DNA of 64,000 nt from a virus. Position numbers: made by a program. Below are positions 30,001-33,000 of this stretch, one piece after another (the first letter of the stretch is position 1; each line of letters opens with the position of its first letter). The stretch lies in the IMG/VR virus record IMGVR_UViG_3300027319_000001; one strand, given 5' to 3'.

Positions 30001-33000
30001 TCATTCGTTTTCCCTGAATGGCACCCTCATGATCGGGAGCGAATGATTCGATGCAAGATCAAATATCGCTTCTGGTCAACCAGTCTTGAGGGTACGCGGC
30101 AGGTCTTCACCTACACCGAGGTACTCACGGACGACACGATTGAGGAGTACGTCAACGACGACCTCATCGATCGTCGACCGAATCCTCTTGGGATGATTCC
30201 GATCGTTCACGCCCCGAATTTGACGGTATCCGGGTCTCCGTGGGGTCTGAGCGATATCCAGGACATCATTCCCCTCAACCGTCAGTACAACGAGACCGCG
30301 ACCCAGGTAGCCGACATCATCGCCTACCACGCTGCACCGGTCACCATCATCACCGGTGCCAAGGCGACCAATCTTGAGAAGGGTCCCAAGAAGGTCTGGG
30401 GCGGTCTGCCGAAGGATGCCAACGTCTTCAATCTCGAAAACGGTGTTGACCTCTCCGGACCGTTGCAGTTCATGGAACTGCTCAAGCGCGCAATGCACGA
30501 GATGACCGGAGTTCCTGAAACTGCCCTTGGTCAGATTCAGCCGGTTTCCAACACCTCTGGCGTCGCGCTCAGCATCCAATGGCAGCCCGCTGTGAATAGG
30601 CGCGAGGAAAAACTCGTAAACGTCACGCGCCTCCTCCAGAAGGTCAATGAGCTGGCTCTGCGAACGCTGTTCATCTATGAGCCTGAAACGCTCAAATACG
30701 ACCCCAGCACGGACGGAATCATCCGTGAGGGTCAGCCTACGGAGATTGATCCGACCGATCCGCTGGTCTACCAGACCGTTTGCGAATGGCCGGATCCGCT
30801 TCCCGTCGACAATCTGATTAAGCTTAACGAGATCCAAGCCAAGATGGCTTTGGGCCTCGAATCCAAGCGTGGTGCGCTTAAGGAACTTGGTGTCGAATTC
30901 CCGGATGAGAAGATGCAGGAAATCTTCGAAGAGCTTGTCCTGGACGCCAAGGAACAGGGCGCACTCGATATTCTCAACGCGCAAATTGCTGCTGCTATTG
31001 TGGAAATGACAGGGATGAATCCCGATGGTTCGCCCCTTGACAATTCCACACAGCAAAACAAGACGTCCCCGCAATCCGGCAGCACTGATTCGAACCCTGC
31101 GGGTCCGATGCCGAGAAGTAATCCGCTCACCGCTGAGCTGGCAGGACTTCTTGGAAATCAGGAAAAGCGTCTGATGACAGAACTCGTGACACAGGCGTAC
31201 GGTACCAAATTGCCGCAGCGCCGAAATCCGGACGCAGATGACTAGCAGGAGATGAGACAGATGGACCAGCCGAACAGTGGCATCCCGCAGCAGCCCATTC
31301 AGGCTGCAGAGCAGATGCAGGTTATGCAGGGCGCGAGTGCAGTGCCGCCGACTCCCGCGCCGACGCCTCAGGTGGTAATCCAGGATCAGCCGGTTGCTCC
31401 GGCAGCCCCTGGTGCCGTGCCGACTCCTACCGCTCCCGTGTCTCCGCAGAGCCAGATCTTCACTGCTGAGGACATTGAGAATGCTCGGAGGCAGGAGAAG
31501 GAAAAGCTCTACAAGGAGCTGGAGCGCTACCGTTCTCAGGTCAAGGAGCTGCAGGAGAAGGTCAAGACGTGGGAGGAGGAGCGTCAGGCTCAGCTTCGGG
31601 CCGCTGAAGAGGAAGAGCGTAAGCGGCGTGAGGCCGAGATGGACGTTCGGCAGCTCCTGCAGGAGAAGGAACGTGAGTGGGAGCAGCGCTTCAAGCAGCT
31701 GGAGGCTGAGCGCGAGGCTGAGAAGGCCGCTCTGGAGAAGGAAAAGGAATTCGCCCGCCTGCAGTCCTACATCCAGCAGCGTGCCCGCGAGGAGCGCGAC
31801 GCCAACAGGATCGCTCCTGAGCTGATCGACCTCATCAACGGCAACTCCATCGAAGAGGTGGAGCGTTCCATTGAGATGCTTAGGGAGAAGACCAACGCGA
31901 TCCTGCAGAGCGTGGCAGCTCAGGTTCCTCAGACTCCTGGGCGGGGTGTCTCTTCCGCTGGATATACGCCTACTGGACCGCTGGACAACCAGCCGACGGA
32001 TTACGTACTCACACCCGAGAAAATTCGGTCCATGTCAATGAATGAATATGCCAAGATTCGGCCGTACATTTTTGGTAACAATGCCCAGTCCGGCCAGGGC
32101 AAGGGCCTTTTCGGGTAAGGAAGGATAAATGCCTATCGGACTCCCTGCGACCAGTGCAATCACTGGTACGCCTAACCTGACCACTAACGTCACTGGCTCC
32201 GTCTACGCCGCTGGTAGTAACCTCTCTCCTGCTATTCAGGAGCTGTGGAGTAAGGAGATTCTCTTCGCGGCGATGCCCGTGCTGCGTTTTGAGCAGTTTG
32301 CGGTCAGCTTCTTCGGCCGCCTCGCATGGTGACATGCGAGTGAAAACCGCGCTGTATCGGTGAACCCCTCCAAAATATGGGGAATACCGAGGGAACCCGT
32401 GTCGGGGACTCCGTAGAGACTGCACGCGCGGCAACTCCAATAGGGCCGCTGAATCGACACAATTTGGCGGAACTGGAGTTGAAGATACAGTCCGAACTTG
32501 CGGGATGGTAAACCGCAAGAGCCGGGCAGAAATGACCCGGCCGCCGCCTTCTGGCGGAGGTAACAGAATTGCAAGAAGACTGAGCTGGGCGTCGCCCCCG
32601 GTTTGACCATTAATTTCATGCGCTACAACAACCTTCCGCCTGCCTCGCAGCTGACGGAAGGCGTGCGCATGACCACCTATGCGCTCAGCGCGAGCCAGTT
32701 CAGCATTACCGTCGCTGAGCACGGTCTGGCGGTCGCGGTTTCCGAGCTTCTGCTCAACGCGTCTTTTGATGATGTAATGGCCTCCGCCTCCAGGCTACTG
32801 GGGCGTAACATGGCGCAGTACCTGGATACCAGCGCGCGCGACACCCTGCTTCAGGCATCCAGCGTGCTGTATGGTTACAACAAGTTTGACACGACCGCTA
32901 ACAGCAACCGTACGGTTCTTTCTCCGTATGACCTCGGTACCCACGCCACCAGCCGTGCGGGCCTTACCGGCAAGTACTACTTCACCTCGGCTCTGGTGAA

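What the first reader, a model, noticed from the sequence alone, without database searches (positions are those of the whole stretch)
32305..32571. ORF-less group I intron appears to split the major capsid protein gene
**The capsid gene looks split.**
- The capsid ORF in the track (TTG 32603) has no RBS, and its frame is open back to 32564.
- A strongly RBS-led ORF (AAGGAAGGATAA-ATG, 32129) encodes 58 residues (...LRFEQFAV) and then drifts into a stop at 32330.

**The 267 nt between U32304 and C32572 can be drawn as a group I intron.**
- P1: GCGGU (32300-04) pairs with GCCGC (32316-20), with a U-G wobble at the 5' splice site.
- P10: CUUCUU (32308-13) pairs with AAGAAG (32573-78).
- P2: CUCGCAUG-GUGA-CAUGCGAG (32321-40).
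- P3: CCGCGC (32347-52) pairs with GCGCGG (32426-31).
- P4-P6: hairpins across 32357-32406.
- P7: GGACU (32406-10) pairs with AGUCC (32489-93).
- P8: CAACUCC pairs with GGAGUUG (32432-81).
- J8/7: GAAGAUACAGUCC resembles the canonical AAGAUAUAGUC.
- Three P9 hairpins follow, and the intron ends in G32571.

**Splicing restores the gene.** Ligation regenerates the GUC codon and yields one 343-aa protein, ...RFEQFAV-KKTELGVAPGLTINFMRY.... To my knowledge, capsid-gene introns are rarely reported in high-GC actinobacterial phages.
Basis: partly seen in the sequence, partly recalled or inferred. Interest (0 to 1): 0.85.

Follow-up and report, generated by a model that had tools for sequence, protein, structure and literature searches.

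The report
Self-splicing intron inside phage capsid gene
A 267-base self-splicing RNA (a group I intron with no gene of its own) interrupts the major capsid protein gene of an uncultured actinobacterial phage; it is a real but ordinary kind of element, related to an intron already shown to splice in mycobacteriophages, and automatic annotation has wrongly cut the capsid gene in two.

Summary
The observation and the interpretation both hold. [quoted passage not shown]

- **Gene restored.** Removing exactly these 267 nt joins 32129-32304 to 32572-33427. The result is one 343-aa N4-gp56-family MCP. It is colinear with the uninterrupted MCPs of Streptomyces phages Alone3 and BRock (73% identity), and RFEQFAV|KKTELGV is invariant across the junction.
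- **RNA model.** Rfam RF00028 matches full length at 42 bits (E 2.8e-9 locally), below its gathering score of 50.
- **Structure.** Fourteen relatives give strong covariation: 92.9% of cells paired against 34-44% for slid controls, and 42 of 66 pairs change on both sides.
- **Known relative.** The intron aligns end to end with the 265-nt ORF-less tail-gene intron of mycobacteriophage BAKA, which is RT-PCR-proven to splice (Pope 2013).
- **Correction.** The P7 5' strand is 32416-32421, not 32406-32410.

It is therefore a new member of a known kind. The more interesting result lies outside the window. This intron family occupies at least nine sites in this MCP family, with up to five introns in one gene. 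One close relative carries two introns separated by a 16-nt micro-exon. Splicing itself is inferred, not shown.

The parts
32117..32125 (+). Shine-Dalgarno-like AAGGAAGGA ahead of the true capsid start codon (ATG 32129). It overlaps the stop codon of the scaffold gene (TAA 32116-32118).
   Evidence: Read directly from the sequence.
32129..32304 (+). Capsid exon 1: 58 codons plus GU of codon 59. It ends in U32304.
   Evidence: It aligns with the N-terminal 53-59 residues of intron-less MCPs.
32300..32320 (+). P1: exon GCGGU (32300-04) paired with the internal guide GCCGC (32316-20), with a U32304.G32316 wobble at the 5' splice site. The P1 loop carries the P10 guide CUUCUU (32308-13).
   Evidence: Rfam alignment. 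Exon and guide co-vary across insertion sites in relatives: CGGU|/GCCG at most sites and UCCU|/GGGA at site 47.
32305..32571 (+). The group I intron: 267 nt, no ORF of its own.
   Evidence: Rfam RF00028 42 bits, E 2.8e-9. Own model R1 280 bits. Stops in all frames. Antisense ORFs have no Pfam hit.
32321..32340 (+). P2 hairpin, 8 bp, with a GNRA loop GUGA.
   Evidence: 7 of 8 pairs change on both sides in 14 relatives.
32347..32352 (+). P3 5' strand CCGCGC. It pairs with 32426-32431.
   Evidence: 4 of 6 pairs change on both sides; 95% of cells paired.
32357..32390 (+). P4 (32357-61 with 32386-90) and P5 (32365-68 with 32379-82), with J4/5 GAA and J5/4 AAU.
   Evidence: 100% of cells paired; 2 of the P4 pairs are compensatory. 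Agrees with the Rfam alignment.
32391..32412 (+). P6 (32391-92 with 32411-12) and P6a (32396-98 with 32405-07).
Evidence: P6a shows C-G to U-A and A-U changes.
32416..32421 (+). P7 5' strand: G32416, bulged A32417, then GACU 32418-21. G32418-C32492 is the presumed guanosine-binding pair.
   Evidence: 69 of 70 cells paired, including one G-C to C-G change. Agrees with the Rfam alignment. The binding-site role is inferred from knowledge of group I introns.
32426..32431 (+). P3 3' strand GCGCGG. It forms the P3/P7 pseudoknot arrangement.
32432..32481 (+). P8 (32432-38 with 32475-81) with an inner extension P8a (32446-54 with 32462-70).
   Evidence: P8 is 90% paired and P8a 83-87% paired, and all 9 P8a pairs change on both sides.
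32482..32493 (+). J8/7 AAGAUAC followed by the P7 3' strand AGUCC.
   Evidence: One mismatch to the consensus AAGAUAUAGUC; it is the only such site in the window with at most one mismatch.
32497..32557 (+). Three 3' hairpins: P9 (32497-519), P9.1 (32522-40, with the conserved loop CAGAAAUGA) and P9.2 (32544-57).
   Evidence: 99%, 99% and 69% of cells paired, with 5, 4 and 5 pairs changing on both sides. The motif GGCAGAAATGACC is shared with at least 120 viral contigs.
32571..32571 (+). Terminal G (omega-G), the last base of the intron. It follows the conserved GUAACA (32560-65).
   Evidence: The position is fixed by colinearity with intron-less genes together with the group I rule that the intron ends in G.
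32572..33427 (+). Capsid exon 2: C of codon 59, then 284 codons and the stop. AAGAAG 32573-78 is the P10 partner.
   Evidence: Pfam PF25209 33 bits for the joined protein.

Best explanation
**What it is.** Window 32305-32571 is a compact group I self-splicing intron that carries no homing-endonuclease gene. It sits inside the major capsid protein gene of an uncultured BRock-like phage, probably one that infects Actinomycetota.

**How it works (inferred from the established group I mechanism).**
1. The gene is transcribed as one pre-mRNA.
2. The intron folds into the group I core: P1-P2, the P4-P6 domain, the P3-P8 domain with the P3/P7 pseudoknot, and three P9 hairpins.
3. A free guanosine bound in P7 attacks the bond after U32304, which is held in P1 by a U.G wobble with the internal guide GCCGC.
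4. The terminal G32571 then enters the same site.
5. P10 (CUUCUU with AAGAAG) aligns exon 2, and the exons are ligated.
6. The spliced mRNA reads ...GCG GU|C AAG AAG... and encodes one 343-aa capsid protein.

**Shown here.**
- The fold, with comparative support.
- Family membership.
- The exact restoration of a conserved gene.

**Inferred, not shown.**
- That catalysis actually occurs in vivo.
- How the intron spreads. Most likely this is homologous recombination between co-infecting phages at the same site, with occasional jumps to new sites that end in GGU.
For: **RNA model matches.**
- Rfam RF00028 matches full length (model 1-253) at 42 bits, E 2.8e-9.
- The fold is far more stable than shuffles, z = -5.45.

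**Comparative support for the structure.**
- On a structure-blind MAFFT alignment of 14 relatives, 92.9% of cells pair, against 34-44% for slid controls. 42 of 66 pairs change on both sides, and 0 of 500 shuffles do as well.
- On 133 model-aligned relatives, 93% of cells pair, against about 40% for slid controls, and 60 of 61 pairs are compensatory.

**The host gene is restored exactly.**
- The spliced protein is colinear with the uninterrupted MCPs of phages Alone3 and BRock: 73% identity, with RFEQFAVKKTELGV invariant across the junction.
- It is colinear with many 330-347-aa database homologues at 98-100% coverage.
- Gene order (portal, scaffold, capsid) is the same.

**Relationship to a proven intron.**
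- It aligns end to end with the 265-nt BAKA tail-gene intron.
- blastn gives 84% identity over P3-P5 to 28 Cluster J mycobacteriophages.
- Splicing of the BAKA intron was shown by RT-PCR (PMC3706429).

**Evidence for selection and mobility.**
- The same site is occupied in independent assemblies: L083, L130 and L095.
- Those copies are diverged but structure-preserving. This implies selection on the RNA.
- The exon end and the guide sequence co-vary between insertion sites.
Against: - No RNA or protein data exist for this phage, so splicing is inferred.
- The Rfam score (42 bits) is below the curated gathering score (50). The match is lost in whole-window scans.
- P1 is only 5 bp.
- The structural subgroup (IA, IC and so on) was not determined.
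- No homing endonuclease was found in the intron or among the flanking ORFs scanned between 27373 and 36011, so the means of spread is unknown.
Confidence: 0.93

Rival explanations
1. The insert is a decayed, non-splicing relic of an intron. The capsid gene is then a pseudogene of a defective phage or phage remnant.
For: - No expression data exist.
- The Rfam score is below gathering.
- No homing endonuclease is present.
Against: - Every core helix and the conserved joining segments are intact.
- Both exons remain open and are 96% identical to L083 and 73% identical to cultured phages.
- Copies at the same site in other contigs have diverged through compensatory changes. That is the signature of a functioning RNA.
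- The surrounding structural module is intact.
Confidence: 0.04
2. There are two separate genes, as public gene callers have it: a 67-aa protein (32129-32332) and an N-terminally truncated capsid protein starting at TTG 32603 or ATG 32618. The structured spacer between them would then be something else, such as a regulatory RNA.
For: Public gene calls on the source contig list a 67-aa gene and a 269-aa gene.
Against: - Intron-less homologues encode both parts as one protein, with no break.
- There is no ribosome-binding site before 32603.
- The spacer matches a group I model full length and is bounded by U and G at exactly the points that restore the frame.
Confidence: 0.02
3. The two parts are joined by another route: translational bypassing of the 267 nt, an intein, or a group II intron.
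For: None beyond the fact that the gene is interrupted.
Against: - The insert has stops in all three frames, so it cannot be an intein.
- No group II or other Rfam family matches it.
- The known bypass in T4 gene 60 spans 50 nt, by established knowledge, and it would not explain the group I fold supported by covariation.
Confidence: 0.01

Closest known systems
ORF-less group I intron in the minor tail protein gene of Cluster J mycobacteriophages BAKA and Optimus (Pope et al. 2013, PMC3706429)
   Same: - Same RNA family. It aligns over its whole length with the same helices, including the conserved guide GGCCGCC, the P9.1 loop GGCAGAAAUGACC and the 3' GUAACA.
- 84% identity over P3-P5.
- Nearly the same size: 265 nt against 267 nt.
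- No endonuclease gene.
- The 5' exon ends in GCGGU in both.
- The host is an actinobacterial phage with a genome of about 110 kb.
   Different: - It lies in a tail gene, not a capsid gene.
- Overall identity is only about 59%.
- BAKA's splicing was shown by RT-PCR; this one has not been tested.
Group I intron in the capsid gene of mycobacteriophage LittleE (Pope et al. 2013)
   Same: - It interrupts the major capsid gene of an actinobacterial phage.
- It has a U before the 5' splice site and a G at the intron end.
- According to the paper, its 5' part is 98% identical to the BAKA intron.
   Different: - The LittleE intron is about 820 nt and carries a LAGLIDADG-like endonuclease gene on the opposite strand.
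- Its capsid protein belongs to a different family.
- It was not compared directly here.
Classical phage group I introns (T4 td, nrdB and nrdD; SPO1 DNA polymerase; three introns in one Staphylococcus phage Twort gene)
   Same: - Self-splicing introns in conserved regions of essential phage genes.
- Some are ORF-less.
- Several introns can sit in one gene.
   Different: - From my own knowledge, those are mostly IA2-type introns with P7.1/P7.2 in low-GC or Gram-negative phages, often with endonuclease genes.
- This intron has only GCAC between P7 and P3', so it has no P7.1/P7.2.
Rfam RF00028 Intron_gpI
   Same: A full-length match to the consensus core P1-P9 with conserved J8/7 and P7.
   Different: - It scores 42 bits, below the curated 50.
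- The three-hairpin 3' extension and the true 3' end (32520-32571) lie outside the model.

Membership tests
Group I intron | Conserved core helices P3-P9 in canonical order, with the P3/P7 pseudoknot and a J8/7 consensus | tested here: met
   - The Rfam alignment covers model positions 1-253.
- All helices are supported by covariation.
- P7 is paired in 69 of 70 cells.
Group I intron | Significant match to the curated covariance model RF00028 | tested here: inconclusive
   - 42 bits, E 2.8e-9 in a 701-nt scan.
- This is below the gathering score of 50, and the match is absent from whole-window scans.
- The threshold is operational, not a biological criterion.
Group I intron | 5' exon ends in U, paired with G in P1; intron ends in G | tested here: met
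   U32304.G32316 and G32571, read from the sequence. The same rule holds at all relatives examined.
Group I intron | Precise removal restores a continuous host gene, colinear with intron-less alleles | tested here: met
   - The 343-aa product is colinear with the Alone3 and BRock MCPs, and the junction is invariant.
- More than 100 full-length homologues.
Group I intron | Guanosine-dependent self-splicing | not testable with these tools
   Needs in vitro transcription with GTP, or RT-PCR from infected cells.
BAKA-type actinophage intron family (Pope 2013) | Sequence and structure homology over the whole intron | tested here: met
   - blastn to 28 Cluster J phages.
- End-to-end alignment.
- One model scores the window at 280 bits and BAKA at 223 bits.
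Mobile group I intron with its own homing endonuclease | Endonuclease ORF inside the intron | tested here: not met
   - The intron is 267 nt with stops in all sense frames.
- Antisense ORFs 32009-32722 and 32236-32619 have no Pfam hit.
- No endonuclease domain in the neighbouring ORFs tested.
N4-gp56 family major capsid protein (host gene) | Homology to the family | tested here: met
   - Pfam PF25209 at 33.1 bits, against a cut-off of 27.
- The top database hits are named N4-gp56 family major capsid protein by NCBI and JGI.

The most novel reading that the evidence does not exclude
The window's intron is one copy of an endonuclease-less group I intron lineage that preferentially colonises phage major capsid genes and repeatedly moves to new sites within them.

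**What the related contigs show.**
- The family sits at nine or more positions of this one capsid protein family.
- Up to five introns occur in one gene, and one gene has two introns 16 nt apart.
- The family also occurs in unrelated HK97-type capsid genes.
- The guide sequence tracks the exon end at each site: CGGU|/GCCG, or UCCU|/GGGA.
- Copies at the same site are more alike than their host genes are.

**Why it could matter.** This pattern is what reverse-splicing-style retargeting would predict. So far that pathway is supported only by circumstantial evidence from rRNA introns (PMC3984707). It is not described in the literature I could search.
Probability: 0.45. Interest if true: 0.7.

Novelty: new member of a known kind. 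Interest (0 to 1): 0.5.

Why it matters
**Annotation.**
- The capsid gene of this phage and its relatives is split into a 57-67-aa ORF and a truncated capsid ORF in public gene calls.
- Rfam at its default threshold does not flag the intron.
- Capsid-based classification, protein clustering and structure prediction for this lineage therefore inherit a truncated protein.

**Biology.**
- The single intron adds a second, independent case of a capsid-gene intron in actinobacterial phages. It extends the BAKA intron family to BRock-like phages.
- The wider pattern found on the way gives a natural data set for asking how ORF-less group I introns spread. That pattern is many sites in one essential, very highly expressed gene, with no endonuclease in sight.
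- It also raises the question of whether splicing limits or times late gene expression.

Tried and rejected
**Scans that found nothing more in the window.**
- Rfam at gathering score on the whole window gave no hit.
- Rfam at E-value threshold on all 64 kb dropped the intron through its filters and returned only weak unrelated hits. This shows that a whole-window scan is not a valid negative.
- My own model R1, run with filters off, found only one copy. The next best score was 10.9 bits.
- A J8/7 motif search gave no second site with at most one mismatch.
- Other, unrelated intron families in the window are therefore not strictly excluded.

**Other negatives.**
- megablast of 24 kb around the locus against deposited phages found no match, so the phage is not in that collection.
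- The antisense ORFs across the intron (237 aa and 127 aa) have no domain hit and are treated as spurious.
- Endonuclease domains were looked for in eight neighbouring ORFs and none was found.
- The terminator and promoter scan around the gene was uninformative.
- No tRNA genes were found in the window.

**Not attempted or not resolved.**
- Structural subgroup assignment was not attempted rigorously, because no subgroup-specific models were available.
- The literature searches found no description of introns in BRock-like or N4-gp56-type capsid genes. The library excludes most subscription journals.
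Full report
**1. The observation**

- The scaffold gene ends at TAA 32116-32118.
- AAGGAAGGA (32117-32125) precedes ATG 32129.
- That ORF runs 58 codons to ...LRFEQFAV, continues for eight unrelated codons and stops at 32330-32332.
- The reading frame of the large capsid ORF is open from 32564.
- Its first possible starts (TTG 32603, ATG 32618) have no ribosome-binding site.
- The 267 nt between U32304 and C32572 carry stops in all three frames.
- Joining 32129-32304 to 32572-33427 gives an ORF of 343 codons in which the split codon GU|C is Val59.

**2. Is it a group I intron?**

*Rfam.* At its gathering threshold Rfam finds nothing in the window. A permissive scan of all 64 kb also loses this locus through its speed filters. 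A scan of 32100-32800 gives Intron_gpI (RF00028) at 32295-32519.
- The score is 42 bits (gathering score 50) and the E-value 2.8e-9.
- The match covers the model end to end (positions 1-253).
- P1, P2, P3, P4-P5, P6-P6a, P8 and P9 are aligned.
- The conserved stretches AGACU (P7 5') and GAAGAUACAGUCC (J8/7 and P7 3') are in place.

*Stability.* The sense strand folds much better than shuffles (-125 kcal/mol, z = -5.45). The antisense strand does as well, so stability alone does not decide the question.

*Comparative evidence.* This is the decisive line. I collected relatives from other contigs (section 4) and aligned 14 of them with MAFFT, without structural information (A5). I then scored the structure drawn on the window sequence.
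- 92.9% of cells form standard pairs, against 34-44% when the 3' partners are slid by 1-3 columns.
- 42 of 66 pairs show changes on both sides.
- 0 of 500 shuffles reach the observed values.
- Every helix except the invariant P5 has compensatory changes. This includes P2, P3, P4, P6, P6a, P8, P8a, P9, P9.1 and P9.2.

On 133 matches aligned to a covariance model built from A5 (R1), 93% of cells pair, against about 40% for slid controls. 60 of 61 pairs show double changes. That alignment is fitted to the structure and leans towards it, so the MAFFT result is the unbiased one.

The P7 5' strand is G32416 plus GACU 32418-21, with A32417 bulged, pairing with AGUCC 32489-93. That pairing holds in 69 of 70 cells and includes a G-C to C-G switch in BAKA.

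**3. Does removal restore the gene?**

Yes, exactly.
- blastn against deposited phages finds the capsid genes of BRock-like Streptomyces phages (Alone3, LuckySocke, BRock, GiJojo, pSt2308). For Alone3 the match comes in two pieces that skip the insert.
- In Alone3 and BRock the order portal, scaffold, capsid is the same, and the capsid gene is one uninterrupted 340-codon ORF.
- The spliced window protein aligns with both at 73% identity with no gap at the junction. ILF.AMP.LRFEQFAVKKTELGV.PGLTINFMRYNNL is essentially invariant.
- A search of 5.8 billion proteins returns over 4,000 homologues. The best are 330-347 aa at 98-100% coverage, and NCBI and JGI name them N4-gp56 family major capsid protein.
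- Pfam PF25209 matches above its cut-off.
- The DNA junction has a two-base ambiguity (CA begins both the intron and exon 2). The group I rules (U before the 5' site, G at the intron end) select U32304 and G32571.

Homologues do not begin at the equivalent of 32603.

**4. What family is it, and who else has it?**

*The known relative.* blastn of the intron alone hits 28 Cluster J mycobacteriophages (BAKA, Optimus, Redno2, Wanda and others). Identity is 84% over P3-P5, inside or beside the minor tail protein gene. This is the 265-nt ORF-less intron that Pope et al. (2013) showed to be spliced by RT-PCR. The same paper describes an 820-nt endonuclease-bearing intron in the capsid gene of LittleE (PMC3706429). 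The window intron and the BAKA intron align from the guide sequence GGCCGCC to the terminal GUAACA...G with the same helices.

*How widespread it is.*
- Model R1 finds 133 and 45 matches in those loci.
- It finds none in the intron-less control loci L001-L006.
- The window itself contains exactly one copy (280 bits; the next best is 10.9 bits with filters off).

**5. The same gene in relatives**

Truncated capsid proteins in the database led to intron-bearing alleles.

Insertion sites, in window protein numbering:

| Site (aa) | Loci |
|---|---|
| ~41 | L107 |
| ~47 | L095, L185 |
| 53/54 | L083, L130, L084-L087, L113, L161, L137 |
| 59 | window, L083, L130, L095 |
| ~80 | L144 |
| ~144 | L185 |
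| ~240 | L185, L098 |
| ~262 | L185, L197 |
| ~325-329 | L098, L134, L137, L185 |

- *L083* (ENA ERZ795070; its twin is L130) encodes a capsid protein identical to the window's at 329 of 343 residues. It has two introns, of 289 and 278 nt. One follows codon 53 and the other lies at the window's site. They are separated by a 16-nt micro-exon, UCGAGCAGUUCGCGGU.
- *L084* is a contig in a Streptosporangium sandarakinum assembly. L084 and L085-L087 carry one more divergent intron at the codon-53 site.
- *L185*: removing five predicted introns yields one continuous 377-aa capsid ORF. The exact boundaries of the second intron are uncertain by a few bases.

Close relatives of the intron also sit in HK97-type (PF05065) capsid genes in L117 (two introns), L160 and L111.

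**6. Signs of mobility**

- In a distance tree the introns group by site rather than by host. The window's intron is 87% identical to the L095 site-59 intron, whose capsid protein is only 64% identical to the window's. It is 82% identical to the L083 site-59 intron, whose capsid protein is 96% identical.
- The L083 site-53 intron is sister to the site-59 group.
- The exon end and the guide sequence match at each site. CGGU| pairs with GCCG at sites 53 and 59, in BAKA and in several HK97-type genes. UCCU| pairs with GGGA at site 47. GGU| pairs with GCC at the others.
- The window lacks the site-53 intron that its 96% relative L083 carries, so gain or loss is recent.
- No endonuclease gene is present. 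The antisense ORFs across the intron have no Pfam hit, and eight neighbouring ORFs tested carry no endonuclease domain.

How the intron moves is therefore not shown. The candidates are:
- recombination between co-infecting phages;
- trans-acting free-standing endonucleases (collaborative homing);
- reverse-splicing-type retargeting, for which the 2014 review says only circumstantial evidence exists (PMC3984707).

**7. Source and annotation**

- The exact exon-2 product is on three assembled contigs, for example Logan SRR6048028_4334 (62 kb). Gene callers there report a 67-aa gene and a 269-aa gene in place of the capsid gene.
- The phage is absent from the deposited-phage collection at megablast level.
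- Its nearest capsid relatives are metagenomic or lie on contigs of about 100-112 kb in assemblies of Microbispora, Nonomuraea and Streptosporangium. An actinobacterial host is thus likely but inferred.
- The window's G+C content is 57.9% and the intron's is 58.1%.

**8. Verdict**

- It is a new member of a known kind: the BAKA-type ORF-less group I intron family, here in an N4-gp56-type capsid gene.
- Splicing itself remains an inference from structure, conservation and the necessity of an intact capsid gene.
- The single intron is of moderate interest.
- The capsid-gene hot spot seen in relatives is the part a specialist would want followed up.

Noticed in passing
L083 2372-2954 (ENA ERZ795070 NODE_1782); the same arrangement in L130 7950-8505: A 96%-identical capsid gene carries two group I introns of this family in tandem (289 nt and 278 nt), separated by a 16-nt micro-exon, UCGAGCAGUUCGCGGU. 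Double splicing gives a 343-aa protein identical to the window's at 329 of 343 residues. The window has only the second intron.
   Followed up: yes
L185 about 1660-4180, minus strand (IMG/VR contig): One capsid gene of the same family contains five model-R1 matches (77-252 bits). Removing them yields a single 377-aa capsid ORF. Across relatives the family occupies at least nine different positions of this protein.
   Followed up: partly
L117 56-667, L160 990-1249, L111 2188-2447: Close relatives of the intron (185-271 bits) interrupt capsid genes of an unrelated family (Pfam PF05065, HK97-type). The intron lineage therefore seems biased towards major capsid genes. The sample was chosen by a sequence pattern, so the bias is not quantified.
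   Followed up: partly
L095, L185 (site 47) compared with window, L083, L113, L161 and BAKA: The internal guide sequence differs between insertion sites in step with the exon end: GGGA with UCCU| at site 47, and GCCG with CGGU| elsewhere. This is consistent with retargeting by guide-sequence change.
   Followed up: partly
window 26190-26402: A GC-rich, hairpin-dense intergenic stretch lies after the 890-aa ORF (23470-26142). It gives sub-threshold Rfam hits to RAGATH-18 (26271-26330; 34.7 bits against 44.9; E 0.008) and to HgcC (26338-26402).
   Followed up: no
window 33428-33647: A 220-nt untranslated gap follows the capsid gene; the gap is about 97 nt in Alone3. It contains a hairpin, GUCCGGC...GCCGGAU (33540-33569), followed by CUUUGUGUU, which could be the terminator of the capsid transcript. 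The simple terminator scan did not flag it.
   Followed up: no
window 651-681 and 2213-2243: Two GC-rich hairpin-like sites gave identical scores on both strands as noise hits of model R1. This suggests a short repeated element in the left part of the window.
   Followed up: no
whole window: A methodological point. The Rfam scan of all 64 kb, even at E <= 1, does not report the intron that a 701-nt scan finds at E 2.8e-9. Whole-window negatives for group I introns are therefore unreliable. No tRNA genes were found in the window.
   Followed up: yes
L084 (Streptosporangium sandarakinum GCA_053588895.1, contig JBSFQV010000027.1); P0003, P0005, P0014 and P0038: Close homologues of this phage's capsid gene sit on contigs of 50-112 kb, and on some much larger ones, in genome assemblies of Streptosporangiales. 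This hints at the host range and at carriage of such phages in cultures.
   Followed up: no
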